A stretch of 64,000 nt of DNA from an uncultured virus (IMG/VR IMGVR_UViG_3300032321_001739) (Duplodnaviria > Heunggongvirae > Uroviricota > Caudoviricetes): the IMG/VR virus record IMGVR_UViG_3300032321_001739, one strand, 5' to 3'. The position numbers and the translations under genes were made by a program. Below, one piece after another: positions 10,239-63,557 of this stretch. The number at the start of each line of letters is the position of its first letter. The first letter of the stretch is position 1. The notes under the pieces were generated by a model. That model saw only the letters and a program-made list of their open reading frames with translations. It was not told where the DNA came from and made no database searches.

Positions 10239-12434
10239 ATGAATATAAATGATTATAAATTGTTTTTGGAACTTCAGAAGGATGAACCAATTAACGAAGA
10301 AGTTGGTTTAAGAAACCTCAAAAAGATTGCTAAGAGTTTAGATACAATTGACCAAGCACTTGTTGGAACTAAAAGATTAGAGATAAATCCATCCTCAAAA
10401 GCGAGTATGATTGATATATCAAATGTTGTAAGTGGAAATAGAAAGTGTGAGATTTATTTTCATAAAGACTTAGATGGTGTTACATCGGCTTTAGCTATGA
10501 AACAAATTCTTTGGAGTCAATACCAAATCGAATGTGTTGATTGTCACACAATTCAATATGGCGGATTAGAATTCGCGGTTCAACAACCAAAACCAGGAAA
10601 TCTAGCAGTTCTTGTAGATTTTGCACACTCTAAACCAATGTTTACAATTGCAACTGACCACCATCAAGAACAAGTTGGTGCCGAAGATACATCATCAACA
10701 TATTACAAACATTCAAGATCAAATGTTGAAACAATTTCTGGTGAGATTGCAAAACAAGAAATTTTTCCACAAAGAGATATTGAGTTTATTCAAACAATAG
10801 ATTCTGCGAACTTTTTGAAATATGATGTTAAACCAGAAGACGTTCAAAACTCAATCTTTAAATTAGATAAATCAATGTCTATCGAAAAGTTAAAATTCAC
10901 TATGGGTTTTGTTACTAATAGATTATTATTAGCTTATAAAAATAAAGCAATTACTTTAAAATCTAAAGACGGTAAAAGAGACCATATTAATAGAAATATT
11001 CTAGAGTGTTTGGTGTTAGATTGTTCTCCAAATTTATATTCAATGTATAATAACTTATTACATTATATGAATAATGCAAAAACAAGTGATAGATTGGGTA
11101 GATTAGCAACACCAGAAGAAATAACAAAAAACTTAGCAGATTATATCGAAACAATGAAAACATATTCTAATAAGGAATTTGATGATGATTATAAAATTCT
11201 AAGACAATATGGTGCTGGTTCTATGGTAAAACCAGGATCTTATGATAGATATGTTGTGTTTAAAAATAACCCAGAGGCAGAGTTTAACTGTATCACTTGG
11301 CCAATGGGGTTAATTCAAGTTTCTTGTAATCCATTTAAAGAAAAAGCTCTTAAAGATATTAACTTAGGTGAAATTGCTAAAGAAGTTCTTGCAATATTTG
11401 AACCAAAGTTTAAAAAATACTTTATCTCAATTAAAGCAATTAAAGAAGTTTACGAAACATCACAAGACTGGAAAAATCAACAAAAAATAAAAGGCGAAGA
11501 TTTCTCAGGAATTGGATTTAAATTTTCTGACCTTGCTGCTTTTTATATGGATTGTATTTACCAAAATGGATCAACTGGGGTCAAAAACATTATAGATAAG
11601 GTTTTAGAAATTGATTTTAGAGCAAATTCTGAAACATACGAGGATATTGATGTTATTATCAATTTTAATGGTCAAAAATTTCAATTTAAAGTAACTGAAG
11701 ATTTATTGATTTCAGAATTTGTAAAAACAGCAGTAGCTGATAGAGATATTAGTAAGTTCTCTGTTTATTCATACAAAGAAGGAGAGCCTTTTATTAGTGA
11801 ATTGACACAAAAAAGAATAGGTGGAGCTAAAGATAATATTTCAAACCTATTAAAGAGACAAAATGCTATAGTAACAAGTAGAGATAAGATTATGGTTTTC
11901 AAACCACTTAAAGATAATGCAATAGTAGATTCAATGAATAAAAACTATTCGGATTTATCATATCAAGAATTAAAATATCTTGATGGTTTAAAAATTCCAG
12001 TATGGGAACTAATCATTAGAAACTCGGGAGGTCACCCATCAATAACAAATATATCGGGTCTAAACTTTTTAGCTTATAATAAAGCAGCTATGAAAGTTGG
12101 TTATAACACAGATAAATATACTGATATTATGGCAATGATTGTGGATAAATTTATAAACTCATTAAAAGAGAAAATCAATTTAGCTAGAGAAGGAAAATTA
12201 GTAACATATGATACAAAAGGAGTGGAACTTCTCGGACAAGATATCAATGAGAACTTTAGTTATCAATTAGTTGACAAATTTACCGGACAACCAAAGTCTG
12301 TTACAAAAGAAGAGTTTCTTAAAGCAGGTTCTGAAACAGGAATGAGAAAGTCAAAGAAAAGCTCAATTATTATTGATAACACTAATAAGAAATTGATTGC
12401 AAAGTTTGAGAATTTTAATAATTCAAAACTGTAA
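10239..12434 (+). CDS. DHH-family phosphoesterase with DHHA1-like C-terminal part
   Basis: H-x-DLDG, VDF, TDHH and a late GGHP motif. Confidence 0.75.
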   Translation: MNINDYKLFLELQKDEPINEEVGLRNLKKIAKSLDTIDQALVGTKRLEINPSSKASMIDISNVVSGNRKCEIYFHKDLDGVTSALAMKQILWSQYQIECVDCHTIQYGGLEFAVQQPKPGNLAVLVDFAHSKPMFTIATDHHQEQVGAEDTSSTYYKHSRSNVETISGEIAKQEIFPQRDIEFIQTIDSANFLKYDVKPEDVQNSIFKLDKSMSIEKLKFTMGFVTNRLLLAYKNKAITLKSKDGKRDHINRNILECLVLDCSPNLYSMYNNLLHYMNNAKTSDRLGRLATPEEITKNLADYIETMKTYSNKEFDDDYKILRQYGAGSMVKPGSYDRYVVFKNNPEAEFNCITWPMGLIQVSCNPFKEKALKDINLGEIAKEVLAIFEPKFKKYFISIKAIKEVYETSQDWKNQQKIKGEDFSGIGFKFSDLAAFYMDCIYQNGSTGVKNIIDKVLEIDFRANSETYEDIDVIINFNGQKFQFKVTEDLLISEFVKTAVADRDISKFSVYSYKEGEPFISELTQKRIGGAKDNISNLLKRQNAIVTSRDKIMVFKPLKDNAIVDSMNKNYSDLSYQELKYLDGLKIPVWELIIRNSGGHPSITNISGLNFLAYNKAAMKVGYNTDKYTDIMAMIVDKFINSLKEKINLAREGKLVTYDTKGVELLGQDINENFSYQLVDKFTGQPKSVTKEEFLKAGSETGMRKSKKSSIIIDNTNKKLIAKFENFNNSKL

Positions 12435-12807
12435 TTTCAATTTCTTCTTTTAGTTTTGAATCATTTAATATAACATCTATTTTATTATCTCTCATTATCG
12501 ATTTATCATATCTTAATGTGATTGTATCAGATGGTGAAAAAAGATCTAAATACACCTCAATTCCATTGATTGATCCCATGTGTCTTAGCAATTCTTCACT
12601 CATCAATGATTCTAAACGAGCAAATTTAAAAGAATCATTTGCTTCTAATATATTATAAATAGACATTGGAACTATCATAAAATTTTGACCTGTTTTATTT
12701 CTTTGCATAATAATTTCCTTAATCAATTTATTAGATTTTAACTTAGCCAATTCAAAACTAGTCTCTGCATAACCCAAACTTTCATCTTTATTTAAATCAA
12801 TTGTCAT
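12415..12807 (-). CDS. Major-capsid (gp23) C-terminal-like fragment with RxxK[LI]xx[LI] tag
   Basis: GQNFMIV...YNILE...GSINGIEVYLDLF..DTITLRY resembles the gp23 C-terminal segment; followed by RDNKIDVIL. Confidence 0.5.
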   Translation of the reverse strand: MTIDLNKDESLGYAETSFELAKLKSNKLIKEIIMQRNKTGQNFMIVPMSIYNILEANDSFKFARLESLMSEELLRHMGSINGIEVYLDLFSPSDTITLRYDKSIMRDNKIDVILNDSKLKEEIEITVLNY

Positions 12808-37424: not shown

Positions 37425-38129
37425 ATGAGTATAATTACCAAGTTTCATTTGTTTGAGAAAAAAGAATCTCAAAAAGAGTTTGAACCTTCTAAAGAAGTTC
37501 AAAAAGAAGTTGATCATTTTATGAAAAAATGGGAAATTGAATTAGATCCACATTTCACAATAAAAGAAATTAATGTCATATCAGAAGGAATAGAATATTA
37601 CAACACAAAATTTATTAAAAGCAGAATTGATAAAATAATCAGAAAAGATTTAGGTGGAGTTCACGGTCGATGGAAAGACACAGAAACAAAAAAGTGGATG
37701 ACACTTAATCCAAGAATTTTTAATTTCAAAAGAAGATGGAAAGATGAAGACACAAATGTACCTTACGCGCTTTTTACTGTAGTTCATGAAATTGCACACT
37801 GTGTTGACCACATTGAAAAGGTATCTTTTTCTAAAAAATGGCAAGCGATTTCTGGTTGGAAAAAATGTGATATTAATGACAAAATTCCAGATGGTTATAA
37901 GAGATATATTGAAAAAAGACCAGGAAGAAAAATAGCTGGTCACAAAAAATCAGGATGGGTTTACAAAGAAGATTCTAATTTCTGTAGAAAGTATACTTCA
38001 AGAAATCCAAGAGAAGATTTCGCTGATTGTTTAGCCTTTGTTATTTTAGGTTTTCCAGAAAAACTTAAAGGTGAAGGAGGTAAGAAAAAGCTTGAAATCA
38101 TTAAGGATTTGCTCAAAAAGATAGATTAA
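37425..38129 (+). CDS. Zincin metallopeptidase-like protein (HExxH ... EDFA)
   Basis: VVHEIAH and Y...NPREDFAD; starts MSIITKFHLFE. Confidence 0.65.
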   Translation: MSIITKFHLFEKKESQKEFEPSKEVQKEVDHFMKKWEIELDPHFTIKEINVISEGIEYYNTKFIKSRIDKIIRKDLGGVHGRWKDTETKKWMTLNPRIFNFKRRWKDEDTNVPYALFTVVHEIAHCVDHIEKVSFSKKWQAISGWKKCDINDKIPDGYKRYIEKRPGRKIAGHKKSGWVYKEDSNFCRKYTSRNPREDFADCLAFVILGFPEKLKGEGGKKKLEIIKDLLKKID

Positions 38130-38184: not shown

Positions 38185-39015
38185 ATGTTACTAAAAGTAG
38201 GAAGTAAAGGAGATGATGTTAAAAAACTCCAAGAAAAATTAGGATTAGGAGCTGATGGTTCATTTGGACCAGGCACTGAAAAAGCTGTTAAAGCATGGCA
38301 AACAGCTAATGGACTAAAAGCAGATGGTCTTGTCGGAGACGGAACTTGGTCAAAGTTATTTGGTGAATCAGCACCGGTAGCAGCTCCAAAACCAGCTGTG
38401 GTTATTCCACCATCTGAATTCAAATTAGAGGCTCTTAAAGGACACGTTCCTGATGCGGTTATTGCTCAAATTCCAGATACAGCTGCTAAATTCAATATTA
38501 CTAATCCACTAAGATTAGCACACTTTTTGGCTCAGTGTGGTCACGAGTCAGGTGGTTTCAAAGCAGTTTCAGAAAACCTTAACTATTCAGCTAAAGGTTT
38601 ACTTGGAACTTTTGGAAAATACTTTAACGCTACTACAGCAGCCCAATATGAAAGAAAACCAGAAATGATTGCTTCAAGAGTTTACGGTTCAAGAATGGGT
38701 AACGGAGATGAGGCTTCTAAAGAAGGTTTCAAATTTAGAGGAAGAGGATATATTCAATTAACTGGAAAATCAAACTACACTAACTTTACCAAATTTATTG
38801 GAGAAGATTGTATCGCTAATCCAGATTTAGTTGCTACTAAATATCCTTTAGCATCTGCTGCTTTTTTCTTTGACTCAAATAAATTATGGTCTATTTGTGA
38901 TAAGGGAGCTACCGATGCTGATGTTACTGCAGTTACAAAAAGAGTTAATGGTGGAACTATTGGACTACCTGATAGAATTAAACACTTCAAAGAATATTAT
39001 GCATTATTGAAATAA
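38185..39015 (+). CDS. Endolysin: peptidoglycan-binding domain + GH19
   Basis: LKVGSKGDDVKKLQ...DG.FG..T..AVK.WQ...L.ADG; HFLAQCGHESGGF, RGRGYIQLTG and TKRVNGG. Confidence 0.92.
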   Translation: MLLKVGSKGDDVKKLQEKLGLGADGSFGPGTEKAVKAWQTANGLKADGLVGDGTWSKLFGESAPVAAPKPAVVIPPSEFKLEALKGHVPDAVIAQIPDTAAKFNITNPLRLAHFLAQCGHESGGFKAVSENLNYSAKGLLGTFGKYFNATTAAQYERKPEMIASRVYGSRMGNGDEASKEGFKFRGRGYIQLTGKSNYTNFTKFIGEDCIANPDLVATKYPLASAAFFFDSNKLWSICDKGATDADVTAVTKRVNGGTIGLPDRIKHFKEYYALLK

Positions 39016-42284: not shown

Positions 42285-42631
42285 GCACCTTTGGTAAAAA
42301 ATACTTAAATTACTGGCCCTATGATTTTGATAATCTAAATGTAGATATGCCTCGTTGGAACAAAACACCAAAAGAATTTCAATTAGAAATCTTAAAGAAG
42401 TGGTATCCAATTGGAATGAAGGGTAAATGTATTTTGGTTGGAAGTAATAAACCATCACAGACGACTGTTGAGATAACTGGATATTTAGAATTTATTTGGG
42501 GTTATACTTTAGATGTTGATTATGTTGATAGTAACTATAGAAAGGATATTCATCCAATTAGATTTATTCCAGAACAAGAAGATAGACTAAGAATTTTAAG
42601 AGAACTTAGATTGGATAAGTTATTAGACTAA
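42281..42631 (+). CDS. Hypothetical protein with C-terminal tag
   Basis: Ends LRELRLDKLLD. Confidence 0.65.
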   Translation: MSTFGKKYLNYWPYDFDNLNVDMPRWNKTPKEFQLEILKKWYPIGMKGKCILVGSNKPSQTTVEITGYLEFIWGYTLDVDYVDSNYRKDIHPIRFIPEQEDRLRILRELRLDKLLD

Positions 42632-43012
42632 TCCATCTAAGTTCTTTCTTCGTCTATAAATCTTTTTTGACTTTTCTTTTTCTTCTTCAACAAATCCTTC
42701 TCGAGCATACATATAATTTCCATAGTAAAGAAGTGTAGCATCTTCTAAATTCTCTTTAATGCAATCATCACAGATAGCAATAACAAATTGATCACCGTCA
42801 TGAACTGATCCATAACCTGCATCAATGATGTGTATGATTCCATTGTCAATCATTTCATTATTGACATTGACTAAACTACCATCCGGTCTTTTGGAATCTT
42901 TCCAAAGAATATCTTCTTCTTCAACTTTTTCTTCTAGACCTCTCATACTTTCTTTAGTATAAGAGAATTTATCAGGAATTACGTTATTCTTTTTACAACA
43001 AATACAATACAT
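42623..43012 (-). CDS. C4 zinc-binding protein with C-terminal tag
   Basis: CICC...ICDDC; ends RRKNLDGLV. Confidence 0.6.
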   Translation of the reverse strand: MYCICCKKNNVIPDKFSYTKESMRGLEEKVEEEDILWKDSKRPDGSLVNVNNEMIDNGIIHIIDAGYGSVHDGDQFVIAICDDCIKENLEDATLLYYGNYMYAREGFVEEEKEKSKKIYRRRKNLDGLV

Positions 43013-43158
43013 TATTGGAATATTTTTTTAATTTTCATTTTTCTTATGATAGCTCGTAAAAAAGACTTTCTCATACTTGATCCAATATTATATGATTTTT
43101 GAGTATTTGGATATAAAGAGGCAAAGTCGATGTTTATTATGGTATTAATGTATTCCAT
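43012..43158 (-). CDS. 48-aa peptide with PolB motif-A-like DFASLYP and C-terminal tag (not in ORF track)
   Basis: MEYINTIINIDFASLYPNTQKSYNIGSSMRKSFLRAIIRKMKIKKIFQ*; TAATG-coupled to the next gene. Confidence 0.65.
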   Translation of the reverse strand: MEYINTIINIDFASLYPNTQKSYNIGSSMRKSFLRAIIRKMKIKKIFQ

Positions 43159-43184: not shown

Positions 43185-43799
43185 TTATTGAATCCATTTC
43201 TCTGCTACCTTTCTAAAGTCTGTTAGAATTTCATTTCTAAGTTCTCTAAACTCATTATCTAATTCTTCCCAAGTCCATTCTTTACTTATTAACTTTTTCC
43301 AAATCGGATTAGCCGCCTCGAAGTCATAAATAGTTCCTTTAGTTGCAACTTGAGTTGCGAACATCGGAATTCTAAGTGAATGAAAAATAGATTTTATTCC
43401 AGTGTAATAGTCTCCAATTTCCAATTTCTTCTTACACTTTACCCAACTATTAGAACTTATATGAGAAGTTGCATGTCTTAGTTTAGGAAAATCTATATCT
43501 AAATTGTAAGTAATGTTTTCTTGTAGTTTGGCCCAGGATGGGGCAAAAATACATTCTAAGTTGTTTATACGATGCCATTCTAAATCCTCTTTAAACTTAT
43601 CTGGTGTGTAAATATGAATGTTATACTTTTCTCCTTTCAACTCAATTGCTTCTACTGAATTGTTTGCAACCATTATGATATCCCAATCAGAATTCTCTGA
43701 GTTGGTTTTGTAAACACGACTTCCAAAGACATAGATGTTATGCACCCGTTTTGTATGAAGTCCCGAATGAAGTATTATATCTGATGCAGTTGGTATCAT
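43185..43799 (-). CDS. Pol-beta superfamily nucleotidyltransferase
   Basis: VFGSRVY....SDWD motif; TATATTTG promoter just upstream. Confidence 0.8.
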   Translation of the reverse strand: MIPTASDIILHSGLHTKRVHNIYVFGSRVYKTNSENSDWDIIMVANNSVEAIELKGEKYNIHIYTPDKFKEDLEWHRINNLECIFAPSWAKLQENITYNLDIDFPKLRHATSHISSNSWVKCKKKLEIGDYYTGIKSIFHSLRIPMFATQVATKGTIYDFEAANPIWKKLISKEWTWEELDNEFRELRNEILTDFRKVAEKWIQ

Positions 43800-44105: not shown

Positions 44106-45080
44106 ATGGCTAATGATCCAAAAACAATAAAAGAAGATTGGGGAGTTGATCCTCTTGAAGGAGTTCAATTAAATGAAGTTCAACAAATAATAGTTGATGA
44201 AGCTTTAGGAAATTCAACTTCACTTAGAACCGAAAAAGAAGTAAGTAATGATTTAGAAAATAGATATTCAGGTCTATTTAGTCAATGTGATGGTTTAATT
44301 AAATCATTAGATGGAACATCACTTAAAAGACTTTTAAGAAATGTTTATATCAATGAAAATCCAAAATGGCATCCAGAAAGAAATTCACTTGTTCATATCA
44401 AAATTGTTATGTCCAGAGGAATCGAAACAGGAGATGATGATTTAATCCAAACAGCTCTTTATCATGATATTTCAAAATTTGATACGGTCTCATTCAATAA
44501 ACAAGGATGGCCGACATCACTCGGACATGACAAAGCAGGAGCAGAAGTTGCAACTACAGATGGTGCAAATGAAGTAGTGGTTTATGTATGTGCTAAACAT
44601 ATGGTTATTAAAGGATGGCAGGGTGCATCAGAAGGTGGTGAATTAAATCCTTCTACAAAATTTAAAATATTTGCAGAAGCGCCCGGCGCTGATAATAATG
44701 AAAAAGCAAAAGCATTTTGGAAACTATGTGTGTTTTCTAAAATGGATAATATGGGAAATGAATTTAATGCAGATTCTTTAAAATGGGATAATCCAAGTTA
44801 TGATAAGTGGGATGAAGAATGTCCTTTAAAAGATCAATTTAAAAAGTCAGAATTGGTTCAGATTGTAGAAGAAAAGAAACCACTTGCATTCACTGTTCCA
44901 GAAATTATTAAGATGGGAGCTGTTGGTCCTCAGATTGGTCAAATCAATAGAGAGATTGTTGGGAAATCAAGAGAAGAAGCTTTTGAGATTATCAAACAGA
45001 TATTAGGCAAACCTGATTTAACAATGGAGTCTAAAAAATGGATTAAAACATTTGAGAGTTTTAGAAAGAGATTAAGCTAA
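44106..45080 (+). CDS. HD-domain phosphohydrolase-like protein, with the head-tag motif at its C-terminus
   Basis: WHPE..SL.HI, ALYHDISK, GHD..GA and KHM; ends KWIKTFESF. Confidence 0.7.
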   Translation: MANDPKTIKEDWGVDPLEGVQLNEVQQIIVDEALGNSTSLRTEKEVSNDLENRYSGLFSQCDGLIKSLDGTSLKRLLRNVYINENPKWHPERNSLVHIKIVMSRGIETGDDDLIQTALYHDISKFDTVSFNKQGWPTSLGHDKAGAEVATTDGANEVVVYVCAKHMVIKGWQGASEGGELNPSTKFKIFAEAPGADNNEKAKAFWKLCVFSKMDNMGNEFNADSLKWDNPSYDKWDEECPLKDQFKKSELVQIVEEKKPLAFTVPEIIKMGAVGPQIGQINREIVGKSREEAFEIIKQILGKPDLTMESKKWIKTFESFRKRLS

Positions 45081-45401
45081 TATCTTATCTAATTTTAATT
45101 CTCTAATTTTTTGGATATCTAATTTTAAGGTCTCAATTGATGAATACTGAAATTTTTCTCCACCATCATACGACCAAAGTTTTTGCCCATAATGAGCATC
45201 ACTTAATGAGTTTTGTATAACTTTAACCCAGTCTAAAGGTTTAACTAAAATCACTTGTTGATTTTCATTATAAATAAGTTGAAAAGCATAAACGCCTTCT
45301 TTGACATATTTGCGTATTTCAGATGAAATAACAAAACCAAATAGAAGATTATATCTCACTATGTGTTTATTTAACACATCATTTACAAAATCTTCAATCA
45401 T
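45072..45401 (-). CDS. Hypothetical protein with C-terminal tag
   Basis: Ends IRELKLDKILA. Confidence 0.65.
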   Translation of the reverse strand: MIEDFVNDVLNKHIVRYNLLFGFVISSEIRKYVKEGVYAFQLIYNENQQVILVKPLDWVKVIQNSLSDAHYGQKLWSYDGGEKFQYSSIETLKLDIQKIRELKLDKILA

Positions 45402-45927: not shown

Positions 45928-46463
45928 ATTCCTAAATCATCTAATTTACTATCTCTTAAAAACTCTTTTATAAGCAAATTCAGTTCATACTTTCCATCTA
46001 TACAATCTCTTTCTAAAATCCTAATAGGTCTTAATCTCATCGTATAAGTTTTCCTAACATTTATATTAAGATGGTTTAATTCCATAATAGGATCAGTTCC
46101 GGATGTGCGTTGAATACTTTTATCTTTTGATAAGATATGATAAGTCATTAAACGAATCGATTGCATCTTATTTGTATTAGTAACTAAATTCGACTTAAAG
46201 TAATCTACTTTATCAAAAGTAATCTCAACTAAGAAATTAAATTTATCTGTAACCTCTGATAAATTTGATGGATTAGTTTTATAAAACTGACGATCTTCAA
46301 CATGAGAATAGGAAATAACTCCATCACTTTCTGAAACTGTGATATCATCAATTGAAAAAAAATCATCAGATGTTAATTCCTCAAAATTCTTTTCATTTGG
46401 ATACCATCTTAAAAAGACCAAACTAATTTTCTGAGTATTGTTTATGTTGTAATCAATTTTCAT
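45924..46463 (-). CDS. Hypothetical protein with C-terminal tag
   Basis: Ends LRDSKLDDLGI. Confidence 0.65.
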   Translation of the reverse strand: MKIDYNINNTQKISLVFLRWYPNEKNFEELTSDDFFSIDDITVSESDGVISYSHVEDRQFYKTNPSNLSEVTDKFNFLVEITFDKVDYFKSNLVTNTNKMQSIRLMTYHILSKDKSIQRTSGTDPIMELNHLNINVRKTYTMRLRPIRILERDCIDGKYELNLLIKEFLRDSKLDDLGI

Positions 46464-46581
46464 TAAATAACTTTTTAATTTTGTTCATCCTCACATACTG
46501 TCTAATACCAAAATGGTATTTAGACACACCTGATGCCGTCAATAACTTTTCATAGAAATATTTTAATTCGTTATTTAACAT
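46453..46581 (-). CDS. 42-aa peptide resembling a portal-protein helix, with C-terminal tag (not in ORF track)
   Basis: MLNNELKYFYEKLLTASGVSKYHFGIRQYVRMNKIKKLFNEN*; fills the gap between two tagged genes and overlaps both. Confidence 0.6.
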   Translation of the reverse strand: MLNNELKYFYEKLLTASGVSKYHFGIRQYVRMNKIKKLFNEN

Positions 46582-47594: not shown

Positions 47595-48320
47595 ATGGAT
47601 TACGGAAAAGATTTTAAAAAGTATGCACTAAGTGAAGGTTTGACTTCAATGAACCTCAATTACTACGAACAACAAATTGAAGGGTCAATGACACCTTATA
47701 TCTTAGAAGAAAGAGAAATGCGTGTGACACAAATGGATATTTTCTCGAGATTAATGAGAGATAGAATTCTTTGGGTCGCTGGTGTGGTTAATGACCAAAT
47801 GTCAACAGTTGTTCAAGCACAACTTATGTATTTAGACTCAGTTGAAAAACGAGACATCACAATGCATATTGACTCACCAGGTGGATCAGTAAAGTCAGGT
47901 TTATCAATGATTGATGTGATGAATTATATCAACTCGGATATTCAAACAATCAATACAGGAATGGCAGCATCAATGGGGTCTGTTCTACTTTCATCAGGAA
48001 CAAAAGGAAAACGTTCTTCACTTTTTAACTCTAGAGTTATGACACACCAAGTCAGTCACGGAATGCAAGGAAACATTCAGGACACAACAATCTCACACAT
48101 CGAGGGACATAAATACAATTATATCTTATTTAATATTTTGGCACAAAATTGTGGTAAAACATTTGAAGAAATGATTGAAAGTTCTCGCAGAGATAAATGG
48201 TTCAACTCACACGAAGCGTTAGAATTTGGTCTTATAGATGAAGTTATTGGGGACCAATCAATGGATAAAATGTTAGTAGGATTTGATGATTATTATAACA
48301 GAGAAGTTCTCTCAAAATAA
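47595..48320 (+). CDS. clpP: ATP-dependent Clp protease proteolytic subunit
   Basis: MDIFSRLMRDRI, IDSPGGSV, AASMGS (Ser), MTHQ (His) and RDKWF (Asp). Confidence 0.95.
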   Translation: MDYGKDFKKYALSEGLTSMNLNYYEQQIEGSMTPYILEEREMRVTQMDIFSRLMRDRILWVAGVVNDQMSTVVQAQLMYLDSVEKRDITMHIDSPGGSVKSGLSMIDVMNYINSDIQTINTGMAASMGSVLLSSGTKGKRSSLFNSRVMTHQVSHGMQGNIQDTTISHIEGHKYNYILFNILAQNCGKTFEEMIESSRRDKWFNSHEALEFGLIDEVIGDQSMDKMLVGFDDYYNREVLSK

Positions 48321-59990: not shown

Positions 59991-60299
59991 ATGGGATCTT
60001 TAATTAATGAAAATTACAATCCTCTATTAGAAACAGTAATAGATATCTTTAAATCTAAATGTAGACCTGGATACACTCCATTATATTTACCTGGTAAAAC
60101 TTTTGTTGAACACTTTAGTTTACAAGATGGAGATATTGATCACTTCTTTAATTTAATGTGTTATGAGTTAAAAGTCCTTTCAATAAATCCAGGGTCTGAT
60201 GAAATGTCATATCACTGGGAACAAAATGACTTTGGATTGTTAGAACCCTATCTAACACAATTAAAAAGAGATAATAATCTAACCGATTTAGGAATATGA
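59991..60299 (+). CDS. Hypothetical protein with C-terminal tag
   Basis: Ends KRDNNLTDLGI. Confidence 0.65.
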   Translation: MGSLINENYNPLLETVIDIFKSKCRPGYTPLYLPGKTFVEHFSLQDGDIDHFFNLMCYELKVLSINPGSDEMSYHWEQNDFGLLEPYLTQLKRDNNLTDLGI

Positions 60300-60517
60300 A
60301 TGTAGGAGATATTGTTAGACTTAAAAGTAATCATCATCTTACTGAATTCATTAAAGGTGATTGCTTTATAACACAAGTAGTAAAGTATAATAATAAACAT
60401 AGAAAAACTCGTTATCATATTAAAAATAACGAAGATTGCATGACTTGGGTTCACTTAGAAGAATTGGATTTAGTTAGTGATTTAAGAAATCAAAGATTAG
60501 AAAAATTAGGAATATGA
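60296..60517 (+). CDS. KOW/SH3-like small protein with C-terminal tag
   Basis: MNVGDIVRLK; ends LRNQRLEKLGI. Confidence 0.65.
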   Translation: MNVGDIVRLKSNHHLTEFIKGDCFITQVVKYNNKHRKTRYHIKNNEDCMTWVHLEELDLVSDLRNQRLEKLGI

Positions 60518-60545
60518 ATGTAGAAGAATTAAAAACAGCCAGAAA

Positions 60546-60555
60546 TATATTTGTA
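60546..60555 (+). promoter_or_regulatory. Bacteroidota housekeeping-sigma -7 element TAnnTTTG (representative; about 13 copies)
   Basis: TATATTTG(T/C) at 15987(-), 18137(-), 19796(-), 25033(-), ~43807(-), 46919(-), 51452, 53322, 54849, 58622, 59481, 60546; TATCTTTG at 52165. Confidence 0.75.
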
Positions 60556-60557
60556 AT

Positions 60558-61160
60558 ATGAAAATACACAAATTAGAAGATGGTGATATCATTAAGATAT
60601 TACCAATGATTGATAAGAATAATAAGATCTCTTGGATAAAACAGTATGATTGTGTTGGTCTTAATACTAAGACATTCATCAGTGATACTAAAGGATATTT
60701 GAGAAGAATATCACTTATGCAATCCAAATCAAGTATTAACTTACCGATCACAACAAGATATGCTATGAATATTTATATTGATGGTGAGATTCGTGTTTTA
60801 AATGTTGGTAGAAAGCTATTTCAAATAATCACAGATAATCCAAAGCTATGGGATATAAAAGGTAATCATCAAATCTTTATATCTATGAAGGAAGTTAGTG
60901 CTGGTGGTGGTCAAGTTTTCCCATCATTTGATAAGTCTTATGTTTCTGAAAAAAGTTGGACACCACCAGTTAGTGATATTAATTCTGAAGTAGAGTGGTT
61001 ATCTTATATCAAATCAAATCAACCAGACTTTGATAATCATCTCGAGAAGAGTAACATATTTAATCATAAACAATTACTTATTAATCATTTAGGAAAAGAT
61101 ATGTTAGGTGAGTTGATAGCAGATGATAGACAGAAAAAATTAGAAGGATTAGGAGTATGA
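60558..61160 (+). CDS. Degenerate gp32-like ssDNA-binding fold with C-terminal tag
   Basis: IKILP, TRYAMNI, GEIRVLNVGRKLFQII and FPSFDKS parallel gp32 motifs; ends DRQKKLEGLGV. Confidence 0.55.
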   Translation: MKIHKLEDGDIIKILPMIDKNNKISWIKQYDCVGLNTKTFISDTKGYLRRISLMQSKSSINLPITTRYAMNIYIDGEIRVLNVGRKLFQIITDNPKLWDIKGNHQIFISMKEVSAGGGQVFPSFDKSYVSEKSWTPPVSDINSEVEWLSYIKSNQPDFDNHLEKSNIFNHKQLLINHLGKDMLGELIADDRQKKLEGLGV

Positions 61161-61321
61161 AAGAAGATTGGATAGAGTTATATAACGGAGACTGGATGGA
61201 ACAAATGGCTAAAAAAACTTATGATGAAGCGTGGATAGATACCTTAAAAGACTTTAGGAAGATAATAAGAAAAGATAAAATAATGACAATATATGATTTA
61301 CATTTACAAACCAAGAAGTGA
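61157..61321 (+). CDS. 54-aa peptide with near-terminal tag (not in ORF track)
   Basis: MKEDWIELYNGDWMEQMAKKTYDEAWIDTLKDFRKIIRKDKIMTIYDLHLQTKK*; ATGA-coupled. Confidence 0.55.
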   Translation: MKEDWIELYNGDWMEQMAKKTYDEAWIDTLKDFRKIIRKDKIMTIYDLHLQTKK

Positions 61322-61514
61322 TTGGCATAAAAGATCTGATTTAACTGAAGGAAAGACTTATGAGTGTGAGTGGAATGGTGAAATGGTTTATTCATCTACC
61401 GGTGTTTATTTTAGATTGATTGGTGATTTCGGACATGAAATTGAAGTGCATGAAAGTCAATTTGTTCAATTAGATAAGGTTAGACAACAAAAACTAAATG
61501 AAATAGGTATATGA
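61293..61514 (+). CDS. SH3-like small protein with C-terminal tag
   Basis: LTEGKTYE...IGDFG...SQF; ends RQQKLNEIGI. Confidence 0.65.
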   Translation: MIYIYKPRSDWHKRSDLTEGKTYECEWNGEMVYSSTGVYFRLIGDFGHEIEVHESQFVQLDKVRQQKLNEIGI

Positions 61515-61720
61515 TTGTTAAATTAAATTCAGATAACAGAATTGGTAAATTCTATGCTTTATCTTTAAATAAAGAATATGTAGCTGAAGTGATAAATAGA
61601 AAAATGGGCGATTGGTATAAAATCAAATGTGATGATGGTCATATTAGAGAGTTTTCAGAACACCACTTTATTTCAATTGAGAAAATGCGTGATAAGAAGT
61701 TAAATGAATTAGGAATATGA
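61511..61720 (+). CDS. SH3-like small protein with C-terminal tag
   Basis: LSLNKEY...YKIKCDDG...HHF; ends RDKKLNELGI. Confidence 0.65.
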   Translation: MIVKLNSDNRIGKFYALSLNKEYVAEVINRKMGDWYKIKCDDGHIREFSEHHFISIEKMRDKKLNELGI

Positions 61721-61920
61721 TAGTTAGATGTAAATTAGACAATGATTCAGTTGGTAAATTAAAAGGTTTAACAATTGATAAGTCTTATATGGTAACTGGA
61801 ATTGATAATATTGGATATAGAATTATTGACGATGTGTTGAACAACTATTGGTATACAAAAGAATTATTTTATCCAATTGAAGATGAAAGAGAAACGAAAT
61901 TAAATGAATTGGGAATATGA
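61717..61920 (+). CDS. SH3-like small protein with C-terminal tag
   Basis: LTIDKSY...YRIIDD...ELF; ends RETKLNELGI. Confidence 0.65.
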   Translation: MIVRCKLDNDSVGKLKGLTIDKSYMVTGIDNIGYRIIDDVLNNYWYTKELFYPIEDERETKLNELGI

Positions 61921-62378
61921 AAGAATTATATAAACAACTTACTGATACAATTCAGGCTCTTCCAGGTATTGAAGTTAGCGGTAGTAATTTATCAAATTCA
62001 TTTGATAAGATTAAATCTAATTGGGGTGGTCATTGTATTTTCTTTTACTCTGATGAAAAAGATGCTGAAGGACTTTTCTTTCTTACACGTTCTATAGATA
62101 CTAGGTATTGGGAGTTTGGACATTTATGGAGAATTGAAATAACTTGTGGTGACCAAATACATCCAAATGGTGACAGACCAATTACTTATAATATTTACAG
62201 ACCTTTCATTGGAGAAGAAACTGAAGAAGAAATTGATAAAGAGATAAACTTACTCATTGAAAATATGCACTATCATTTCCACCACGATAATTTTATGTCT
62301 GGCTTTAATATGGATAGAACTAAGTATGACCTGAAAGAGTGGAAAAGAGAAATGAAGTTAAATGATTTAGGGTTATGA
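61917..62378 (+). CDS. Hypothetical protein with C-terminal tag
   Basis: Ends REMKLNDLGL. Confidence 0.65.
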   Translation: MKELYKQLTDTIQALPGIEVSGSNLSNSFDKIKSNWGGHCIFFYSDEKDAEGLFFLTRSIDTRYWEFGHLWRIEITCGDQIHPNGDRPITYNIYRPFIGEETEEEIDKEINLLIENMHYHFHHDNFMSGFNMDRTKYDLKEWKREMKLNDLGL

Positions 62379-62707
62379 AAATAATTTGTGATGATACTAC
62401 CTCTAAAGAGATAGTAGATATATTCTTTCACTTTGATGAAAATAGAGAAAGGTATATCAGAATTGATTGGATTCATCTAACCAAAGGAACTTCTTCTAGA
62501 AGAGAAAAACCGGGTGATCCTCTGAAGCAAGTGATTGTTGATTGTATTCAAGTAAGAGGTAAATCACATTTAGGTTATGATGGAGACTCTACAAATGGCA
62601 CTCGTTATGTATATGAAGGTGATGCACTTTTCAAAGAGTTAAATAATTGGATGATTAATCATCAAACAATTAAAAGAGATATTAAGTTAAAAGAATTGGG
62701 ACTATGA
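62375..62707 (+). CDS. Hypothetical protein with C-terminal tag
   Basis: Ends RDIKLKELGL. Confidence 0.65.
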   Translation: MKIICDDTTSKEIVDIFFHFDENRERYIRIDWIHLTKGTSSRREKPGDPLKQVIVDCIQVRGKSHLGYDGDSTNGTRYVYEGDALFKELNNWMINHQTIKRDIKLKELGL

Positions 62708-62997
62708 AATTGAAATATAAAAGAGGAGATTCCTGTCATATAAAAAAGGCTAGTAAGTTTGTAGAAGGTTCAATAGTCAAGTTGGATATGCCATATCATG
62801 GAAGTTCATGCTATAAAGAAGGAGATATCAGATACTTTGTTACTGAAAAGAAAACTATAACAATAAGCGCAAAAGAACTCTTATTAGGTAAGTATGATAA
62901 AAATGATATAACACAAACTTATTCAGAGAGCGATCTTATATCGTGGGAAAGAGAATGGAAAATAAATCAATTATATGAGAAAGATACACTTATCTAA
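62704..62997 (+). CDS. KOW-like protein with near-terminal tag
   Basis: KYKRGD; REWKINQL. Confidence 0.6.
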   Translation: MKLKYKRGDSCHIKKASKFVEGSIVKLDMPYHGSSCYKEGDIRYFVTEKKTITISAKELLLGKYDKNDITQTYSESDLISWEREWKINQLYEKDTLI

Positions 62998-63217
62998 GTT
63001 TCCAGAAAGACCACATGTGCTTAAAGCCAGTTTAATGTTTGTTGAAGATAATAAGATATGTGATGGATGTGATGAAAGATCAAAATGTGCTTCTATACGA
63101 ACATTGGGTGATGGAGTTTCAATACTTTGTCAAGATTGCATTGAAGGTATTTTAGAGAGTTTAGATCCATCAGCAGTAAGAGATATTAAATTAAATAAAT
63201 TATTAAATGAATTATAA
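62975..63217 (+). CDS. C4 zinc-finger protein with C-terminal tag
   Basis: CDGC...LCQDC; ends VRDIKLNKLLNEL. Confidence 0.65.
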   Translation: MRKIHLSKFPERPHVLKASLMFVEDNKICDGCDERSKCASIRTLGDGVSILCQDCIEGILESLDPSAVRDIKLNKLLNEL

Positions 63218-63557
63218 AGAAATTGTTAGTAAGACAAAAGACAAATTTCAATCAATGTCTTTTATACCCGGAGATACGTTCTCTGAAATGTTATCTTTTT
63301 GGATTGTTGTTATTTCTAATCAGAATGGAATGATTAAAACACTAGAAGGAAATTCCGGTGGGCTAAAATTGGTTACTTACCAATCACCAGAAGAATTTAA
63401 ATCTAAGTGTCAATATAAACACAGTGATGGGTATTGGATTGAATTTATGTCAAACAACACACAAAAGAAATCCGACTTTATTGAATACTATTTTGAACAA
63501 GAGAAAATGAAAGTTGATGAAATTAGAGATTTTAAGTTAAATGACTTAGGAATATAA
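63207..63557 (+). CDS. Hypothetical protein with C-terminal tag
   Basis: Ends IRDFKLNDLGI. Confidence 0.65.
   Translation: MNYKEIVSKTKDKFQSMSFIPGDTFSEMLSFWIVVISNQNGMIKTLEGNSGGLKLVTYQSPEEFKSKCQYKHSDGYWIEFMSNNTQKKSDFIEYYFEQEKMKVDEIRDFKLNDLGI

What the first reader, a model, noticed from the sequence alone, without database searches (positions are those of the whole stretch)
43012..43158. Hidden 48-aa ORF: family-B DNA polymerase motif A (DFASLYP) fused to the tag
Seen: ...IINIDFASLYPNTQ...RAIIRKMKIKKIFQ*, TAATG-coupled to the next tagged gene. Established: DFxSLYP(S) is the catalytic motif A of B-family polymerases, which T4-like phages encode. A 7-residue consensus match in an isolated 48-aa tagged ORF is unlikely to be catalytic. 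Inference: a polymerase epitope captured as a bait, consistent with the capsid, portal and SSB fragments.
Basis: partly seen in the sequence, partly recalled or inferred. Interest (0 to 1): 0.75.

Follow-up and report, generated by a model that had tools for sequence, protein, structure and literature searches.

The report
Tagged polymerase-fragment mini-gene, huge phage
A giant uncultured phage keeps a real 48-residue gene that copies only the active-site segment of a DNA polymerase and joins it to a short tail helix shared by many of its small proteins; it looks like a molecular mimic, but what it binds is untested.

Summary
The ORF (43012-43158, minus strand, 48 aa) is real. The polymerase match spans about 25-33 residues, not 7 (hhalign probability 96%, E 2.6e-9, against relatives' polB N-subunit). 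A family profile finds 783 short proteins. Of 134 examined, the motif A Asp and Tyr are invariant, 131 carry the tail helix, and 111 of 131 place it 20-24 residues after the Asp. Serine-codon switches and dN below dS indicate selection on the protein. Related huge phages (LR745206, LR756502, LR756504) have intact polB split into two distant genes, so this is not a missing polymerase piece. It is accessory: intact in 2 of 7 large records, decayed in 1, and often in a variable slot behind a nucleotidyltransferase gene. The window also holds tagged portal-, tail-tube- and capsid-like pieces. Best reading: a non-catalytic mimic on a shared handle, most likely a decoy for a host polymerase sensor (0.4); the main rival is competition for the polB C-subunit (0.25). 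Binding and expression were not tested. Nine literature searches found no description; earlier scan notes saw similar genes elsewhere.

The parts
43012..43158 (-). 48-aa mini-gene: polB motif A segment plus C-terminal tag helix
43075..43140 (-). Residues about 7-28: copy of the polB motif A region (strand, DFASLYP, short helix, YNI)
   Evidence: AlphaFold2 confidence here is low (pLDDT 58-66)
43015..43074 (-). Residues 29-48: predicted amphipathic basic helix with the tag R-x-x-K-I-x-x-I-F. It includes a 4-codon in-frame insertion (SFLR) absent from the 9 closest homologs
   Evidence: (helix 29-47, pLDDT 84-93)
43185..43799 (-). Upstream Pol-beta-superfamily nucleotidyltransferase; the mini-gene lies within two genes downstream of it in 5 of 11 distinct intact copies whose context I saw
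42623..43012 (-). Downstream 129-aa Cys-rich gene, TAATG-coupled, with a loose tag; it marks the far edge of the variable slot in relatives
45072..45401 (-). Context: 109-aa tagged ORF resembling part of the portal protein of relatives
   Evidence: 0 of 200 shuffles reached its score
63207..63557 (+). Context: 116-aa tagged ORF resembling the tail tube protein of relatives
   Evidence: 0 of 200 shuffles reached its score
12415..12807 (-). Context: 130-aa ORF with a tag-like motif, resembling part of a major capsid protein
   Evidence: phrog_138 E 0.0055

Best explanation
SHOWN: an accessory protein-coding gene of Mahaphage-like huge phages. It presents a free copy of the family B polymerase motif A segment at a nearly fixed distance from a basic amphipathic C-terminal helix that many of the phage's small proteins share. 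It cannot be a polymerase on its own, and relatives carry an intact split polB elsewhere. INFERRED: it is a non-catalytic mimic. The motif part binds a protein that normally recognises the phage polymerase's catalytic segment, most likely a host anti-phage sensor or inhibitor, and occupies it without triggering it. The tail helix is a common handle (docking, localisation or delivery to a protease; partner unknown). It would be one entry in a library of such decoys, with portal, capsid and tail-tube pieces as others.
For: Homology to polB motif A over 33 columns and none to the C-subunit. All 60 listed PDB hits are DNA polymerases. Asp and Tyr are kept in 134 of 134 and Leu in 133 of 134, while neighbouring positions vary; that these are the metal-binding Asp and nucleotide-pocket residues is recalled. 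Protein-level selection. Distribution is patchy, the gene sits in a slot whose short tagged ORFs differ between phages, and one lineage has decayed; this pattern is typical of accessory conflict genes (recalled). The same design applies to portal, tube and capsid pieces. STAND/Avs receptors are reported to sense capsid, portal, tail tube and DNA polymerase (PMC13581612, abstract and passages), and Borvo and aRES are reported to respond to phage DNA polymerase (passages).
Against: No binding or expression data. Avs19 senses family A polymerases by the core domain, independent of the catalytic aspartate. Borvo escape mutations map to the proofreading cleft of family A enzymes. I read of no family B sensor. 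Avs proteins read folds rather than linear sequence, and the motif half of the model is low-confidence. 28 of 31 tagged window ORFs matched no core protein tested, so the tag is not specific to core fragments. Asp invariance is inflated because hits were ranked by a profile containing it; two cluster members left out of the 134 have Gly there. SSB and tube mini-candidates in relatives were borderline (38-102 of 1000 shuffles).
Confidence: 0.4

Rival explanations
1. Subunit mimic. In these phages polB is split, with motif A near the end of the N-subunit and the rest of the palm in the C-subunit. The mini-protein would slot its motif A strand into polB-C in place of polB-N, acting as a dominant-negative regulator, a placeholder, or an inhibitor of a co-infecting related phage's polymerase. 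The tag would localise the complex or send it for degradation.
For: polB is split in the three named relatives and in G002. The closest long relatives are all polB (35 of 35), and 32 of 35 end 83-116 residues after the Asp, as N-subunits do. Gln at Asp+9 occurs in 10 of 10 distinct clade polB-N segments and 77 of 134 minis, but in only 2 of the 35 other polBs, which mostly have Met as 41 minis do. That the motif A strand pairs with the motif C hairpin in the palm sheet is recalled.
Against: The Trp at Asp-5 and Tyr at Asp-1, invariant in clade polB-N, are mostly not kept, and minis have their own Asn at Asp-2 (107 of 134). The gene was not found in 4 of 7 large records with this polB type. The same design for structural proteins needs a more general purpose, although assembly interference could be one.
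Confidence: 0.25
2. Catalytic in trans. The mini supplies the motif A aspartate to polB-C or to a tagged 208-225 aa mini-palm protein, making an exonuclease-free polymerase or nucleotidyl transferase.
For: The Asp is invariant. Tagged mini-palm proteins resemble polB (30 of 30 PDB hits); two have Ser for the Asp; one lies about 0.7 kb from a motif A mini (L049). Both large records with an intact mini also have a tagged mini-palm.
Against: The three mini-palms aligned already have their own motif A-like segment, and W01's keeps the Asp. G004 has the palm without a detected mini. The mini lacks the N-subunit's finger helix (hhalign does not extend there). No mini-palm is in the window.
Confidence: 0.12
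3. Selectively neutral debris: recombination at tag cassettes picks up conserved gene pieces, which persist for a while and decay.
For: A decayed copy lacking the motif sits in the slot of G001, against an intact ortholog P0139. One short copy lacks the tag (L033). Window versus L001 dN/dS rests on only 37 codons.
Against: 783 proteins at 90% clustering and 31 at 50% clustering. Synonymous sites in the motif are near saturation while residues are kept, with TCN/AGY serine switches. Spacing is conserved and indels are in frame.
Confidence: 0.08
4. Chance resemblance to motif A, or a stray piece of a broken polB gene.
For: The single-sequence Pfam score is below the cut-off. The window phage's own polB was not available for comparison.
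Against: (21 of 34 members hit DNA_pol_B). No other polB motif A match is in the window. Relatives carrying the mini also have both intact polB genes.
Confidence: 0.02

Closest known systems
Family B DNA polymerase, motif A region (Pfam PF00136; phrog_262, phrog_2062; RB69 gp43 residues 404-429 in PDB 1ig9), here the N-subunit of the split polB of Mahaphage-like phages
   Same: About 25-33 residues align, including D-F-x-S-L-Y-P and the downstream I-x-P.
   Different: No exonuclease, fingers, motif B, motif C or thumb. It has a family-specific Asn at Asp-2 and a C-terminal tag helix that polB lacks.
Phage proteins sensed by STAND/Avs receptors and by Borvo (PMC13581612; 10.1101/2022.08.27.505566; passages read)
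   Same: The proteins copied by tagged minis here (polymerase, portal, capsid, tail tube) are on the list of sensed phage proteins.
   Different: The described polymerase sensing concerns family A enzymes and folded domains. No fragment decoy is mentioned in the passages I read.
MicroProteins and viral pseudo-substrate decoys such as poxvirus K3L (recalled; no call, no paper read)
   Same: A small non-catalytic copy of part of a larger protein, proposed to compete for its partner.
   Different: Those are folded domains without a shared tag. Here it is a roughly 25-residue piece of the virus's own enzyme on a handle common to many genes.
T4 capsid targeting sequence of internal proteins (recalled)
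   Same: A short terminal label shared by unrelated proteins of one phage.
   Different: That label is N-terminal and cleaved. This tag is C-terminal. The window has a separate N-terminal motif class (9 ORFs).

Membership tests
Family B DNA polymerase (PF00136) | Motif A, DxxSLYP | tested here: met
Family B DNA polymerase (PF00136) | Motif B (KxxxNSxYG-type) and motif C (YxDTD-type) in the chain | tested here: not met
   48 aa only; no match to the polB-C alignment
Family B DNA polymerase (PF00136) | Pfam gathering score of 23 bits | tested here: not met
   15.6 bits
N-subunit of a split polB | Exonuclease domain plus motif A plus finger helix, about 457-513 aa | tested here: not met
   Relatives have a separate full polB-N; the mini covers only motif A
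N-subunit of a split polB | Binds polB-C | not testable with these tools
Anti-defence decoy protein | Binds a host sensor and blocks its activation | not testable with these tools
   No host sensor identified; no assay
Anti-defence decoy protein | Accessory, patchy gene in a variable region | tested here: met
   Intact in 2 of 7 records over 430 kb, decayed in 1; variable slot. This is compatible with the role, not diagnostic of it
Tagged core-fragment mini-proteins (undescribed; scan notes only) | Short ORF made of a core-protein piece plus an R-x-x-K-[IL]-x-x-[IL] C-terminal helix | tested here: met
   (131 of 134 loose pattern, 96 of 134 strict)
Tagged core-fragment mini-proteins (undescribed; scan notes only) | Expressed as protein during infection | not testable with these tools
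   No read or proteomic data obtained

The most novel reading that the evidence does not exclude
Huge Bacteroidetes-type phages encode a modular library of peptide mimics: the most conserved patches of their own polymerase, portal, capsid and tail proteins, each mounted on one shared helical handle. They use it to pre-empt host pattern-recognition receptors, or to route whatever binds them to a common machine such as a protease. This gene would be the entry for the family B polymerase active site and a ready-made probe for an undescribed family B polymerase sensor.
Probability: 0.35. Interest if true: 0.9.

Novelty: categorically new. Interest (0 to 1): 0.7.

Why it matters
If these are decoys, the set of copied fragments maps which phage surfaces bacterial immunity reads, including a family B polymerase site for which I found no described sensor. 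It would also reveal a general anti-defence design: epitope plus common handle. If they are subunit competitors, they are natural peptide inhibitors of a split replicative polymerase. Either way the hypothesis can be tested with a 48-residue synthetic gene. In practical terms, databases often name these proteins 'DNA polymerase elongation subunit (family B)', which is misleading.

Tried and rejected
No whole genome is held for the window, so the comparison with its own polB could not be made; relatives were used instead. The search for related loci with the protein or the close alignment found no confirmed locus in viral contigs (33 and 144 pattern hits) and 1 of 286 in metagenome contigs. Single-sequence searches of three other minis over five genomes found only themselves and were too insensitive; Pfam-guided and pairwise tests replaced them. 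PHROGs named none of 18 other tagged candidates with a known function. Foldseek on the monomer model gave no match at E <= 10. The promoter scan was at chance level, 7 sites against a shuffled mean of 10.1. The ESM Atlas gave DNA_pol_B clusters, a lead only. The tag as a copy of the polymerase finger helix was rejected: hhalign does not align it to either subunit. A 772-aa member in a mini's cluster shows no sign of the mini's motif and no Pfam hit; I treated it as a clustering artefact. Locus L032 from the DNA pattern scan is a non-coding chance match. The SSB-like window ORF 60558-61160 was not significant. An obligate pairing with the mini-palm is not supported. No complex model and no RNA evidence were obtained, so binding and expression remain open; this is evidence neither for nor against.

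Full report
OBSERVATION. The ORF is as described: 43012-43158, minus strand, 48 aa. Its stop overlaps the start of the 129-aa ORF 42623-43012 (TAATG), and it begins 26 nt after a Pol-beta-type nucleotidyltransferase gene. It holds the only SLYP in the window's six frames. An exact DFASLYP is expected 2e-5 times by chance in the window's ORFs, D..SLYP 0.01 times. A loose R-x-x-K-[IL]-x-x-[IL] pattern ends 33 of 272 ATG ORFs of 25 aa or more (a few are probably spurious frames).

A LARGE CONSERVED FAMILY. The single-sequence search gave 3 relatives at 64-82% identity, one on an 817-kb contig. A profile of 10 close sequences found 31 clusters at 50% identity, 39-94 aa long. A profile of 34 found 783 of 6,535 candidates of 21-142 aa at E <= 0.01; only the best 120 were listed, and the tail may include cut polB genes. 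I examined 134 proteins: 4, 31 and 99 new. The Asp and Tyr of the motif were present in 134, Leu in 133, Phe in 126, Ser and Pro in 119 each, and an Asn two residues before the Asp in 107. The tag was present in 131 by a loose pattern and 96 by a strict one, and began 20-24 residues after the Asp in 111 of 131. These counts lean towards the motif because the profile ranked the hits; two cluster members outside the 134 have Gly for Asp. The window copy has a 4-codon in-frame insertion that makes its spacing 28. A longer form (about 65-80 aa) adds an N-terminal extension.

IT IS A PIECE OF POLB MOTIF A. The family aligns to an alignment of five relatives' polB N-subunits over 33 columns (probability 96.2, E 2.6e-9) and not to the C-subunit. 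21 of 34 members hit Pfam DNA_pol_B at E <= 0.1. Of 96 PDB sequences matched at E <= 1, the 60 listed are all DNA polymerases, matched over profile positions 7-34. Among longer proteins, 35 of 8,000 scored candidates passed; all carry PF00136, and 32 end 83-116 residues after the Asp without motifs B or C, as N-subunits of a split enzyme do. Gln nine residues after the Asp occurs in 10 of 10 distinct clade polB-N segments and 77 of 134 minis, while Met occurs in 41 minis and most other split polB-N. I infer either several captures or minis tracking their own polymerase. AlphaFold2 models residues 29-47 as a confident helix and the motif half with low confidence (mean pLDDT 72).

SELECTION ACTS ON THE PROTEIN. 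Window versus L001 gives dN 0.13 and dS 0.28 over 37 codons, a small sample. Across more distant copies, most synonymous sites in the seven motif codons differ while the residues stay, and the Ser codon is TCT, AGT, AGC or TCA in different copies. Nucleotide identity to relatives' polB-N over 18 codons is 56-69%. This argues against recent debris and against a DNA-level decoy. The phage's own polB was not available.

THE PHAGES. The neighbouring nucleotidyltransferase is 62-64% identical to genes in LR745206.1 (634,780 bp) and LR756502.1 (642,428 bp). The mini itself hit LR745206.1 and the polB of LR756504.1 (636,363 bp). These sizes match the 634, 636 and 642 kb genomes reported in PMC7162821, which places genomes of this size in the Mahaphage clade with predicted Bacteroidetes hosts (passages; the match by size is my inference). 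All three have two distant intact polB genes: an N-subunit with exonuclease and motif A (about 477-513 aa) and a C-subunit with motifs B and C (408-474 aa). G002 has the same arrangement. The mini is therefore extra, not a missing part. Among seven records over 430 kb it is intact in W01 and W03, decayed in G001 (motif lost, against the intact ortholog P0139) and not found in W02, G002, G004 or G005; the IMG/VR records may be incomplete. Among 30 further, mostly partial records, 1 had a mini. A DNA pattern scan of viral contigs gave 20 loci: 12 short ORFs (6 distinct sequences, 5 with a tag-like end), 7 full-length polB genes and 1 chance match.

CONTEXT. In 5 of 11 distinct intact copies with visible context, the mini lies within two genes downstream of the nucleotidyltransferase (window, L001, W01, G003 type, G012). 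In W03 that gene is about 3.4 kb away, and in five it is not within 2 kb. The slot between the nucleotidyltransferase and the Cys-rich gene holds different short tagged ORFs in different phages. In the window, 3 of 31 tagged ORFs beat all 200 shuffles against 27 core proteins of relatives: this one (polB-N), 45072-45401 (portal) and 63207-63557 (tail tube); 28 matched nothing. ORF 12415-12807 hits a major head PHROG at E 0.0055. An SSB-like candidate was not significant. In relatives, Gp23 matches several short open frames of 57-95 aa. Seven targeted tests gave 0, 0, 8, 38, 48, 102 and 229 of 1,000 shuffles for portal, capsid, capsid, tube, SSB, SSB and a second portal candidate. A separate tagged 208-225 aa mini-palm resembles polB (30 of 30 PDB hits). 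It occurs in both large records with an intact mini, but also in G004 without one.

MECHANISM. Shown: a coding, selected, accessory gene made of a motif A piece and a shared helix. Inferred: it works as a mimic. I favour a decoy for a host protein that recognises the phage polymerase (0.4), because the same design covers portal, capsid and tube, which with DNA polymerase are among the proteins sensed by STAND/Avs receptors (PMC13581612, abstract and passages). Against this, the same paper says Avs19 senses family A polymerases by the core domain, independent of the catalytic aspartate. Borvo escape mutations lie in the proofreading cleft (10.1101/2022.08.27.505566, passages), and Avs recognition is described as fold-based (PMC13728456, passages). 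The main rival (0.25) uses the split: motif A must join the C-subunit's palm (structure recalled), so a free copy could compete with polB-N. Catalysis in trans (0.12), debris (0.08) and chance (0.02) are weaker, and the remainder is left for roles not considered. The tag's partner is unknown. The window encodes a ClpP (47595-48320), which makes a degradation handle conceivable but untested. No complex model or expression data were obtained.

NOVELTY. Nine full-text searches listed no paper whose title or abstract start describes tagged core-protein fragments. Passages of a jumbo-phage review (PMC7824862) contained none. The library lacks most subscription papers, and I saw no supplements; annotation tables there could list these genes. 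Earlier notes of this scan describe motif A minis and related tagged fragments in other genomes. They are unchecked AI notes and not independent support.

VERDICT. Observation confirmed; interpretation partly supported. The gene design appears undescribed and its function is open. Interest 0.7.

Noticed in passing
L049:2846-3520 (-), L022:1399-2049 (+), L137:1453-2085 (-); also L178-L181: Tagged 208-225 aa miniature polB palm-and-fingers proteins; some have Ser for the motif A Asp.
   Followed up: partly
L005-L013, L050-L053, L064-L117: Family B polymerase split into two distant genes across this huge-phage clade; 57 polB-C-like matches in viral contigs.
   Followed up: partly
window 45072-45401 (-), 63207-63557 (+), 12415-12807 (-): Tagged ORFs resembling pieces of portal, tail tube and major capsid protein.
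   Followed up: partly
window 60558-61160 (+): 200-aa tagged ORF with SSB (gp32)-like motifs by eye; hhalign not significant.
   Followed up: partly
L001:8135-8266, L028:5621-5752: Conserved 43-aa tagged mini with an ISGG motif in the same slot; weak match to the window's 234-aa ORF 37425-38129 (E 0.028).
   Followed up: partly
protein P0040: A mini with an SSB-like short stretch in front of the motif A piece and tag, suggesting modular stacking of fragments (weak).
   Followed up: partly
window 46453-46581 (-): 42-aa tagged ORF with a weak, non-significant likeness to the polB-C thumb (30 of 200 shuffles).
   Followed up: partly
window 18227, 21537, 28447, 30036, 32565, 34615, 35608, 40977, 46975: A second class of ORFs sharing an N-terminal M-K-H/Y-L/I-K-x-F/Y motif; its likeness to a capsid-targeting signal is recalled, not tested.
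   Followed up: no
window 59991-63557 (+): A run of about 12 consecutive, mostly overlapping ORFs that all end in the tag.
   Followed up: no
L027:4691-5533: The nucleotidyltransferase is fused to an 80-aa Cys-rich protein that stands alone with a tag in the window (62975-63217) and in L001.
   Followed up: no
window 38185-39015 (+), 47595-48320 (+): Peptidoglycan-binding GH19 endolysin and a ClpP protease.
   Followed up: no
L049:2121-2849 (-): A microbial PARG gene lies between the mini-palm and the motif A mini in this contig.
   Followed up: no
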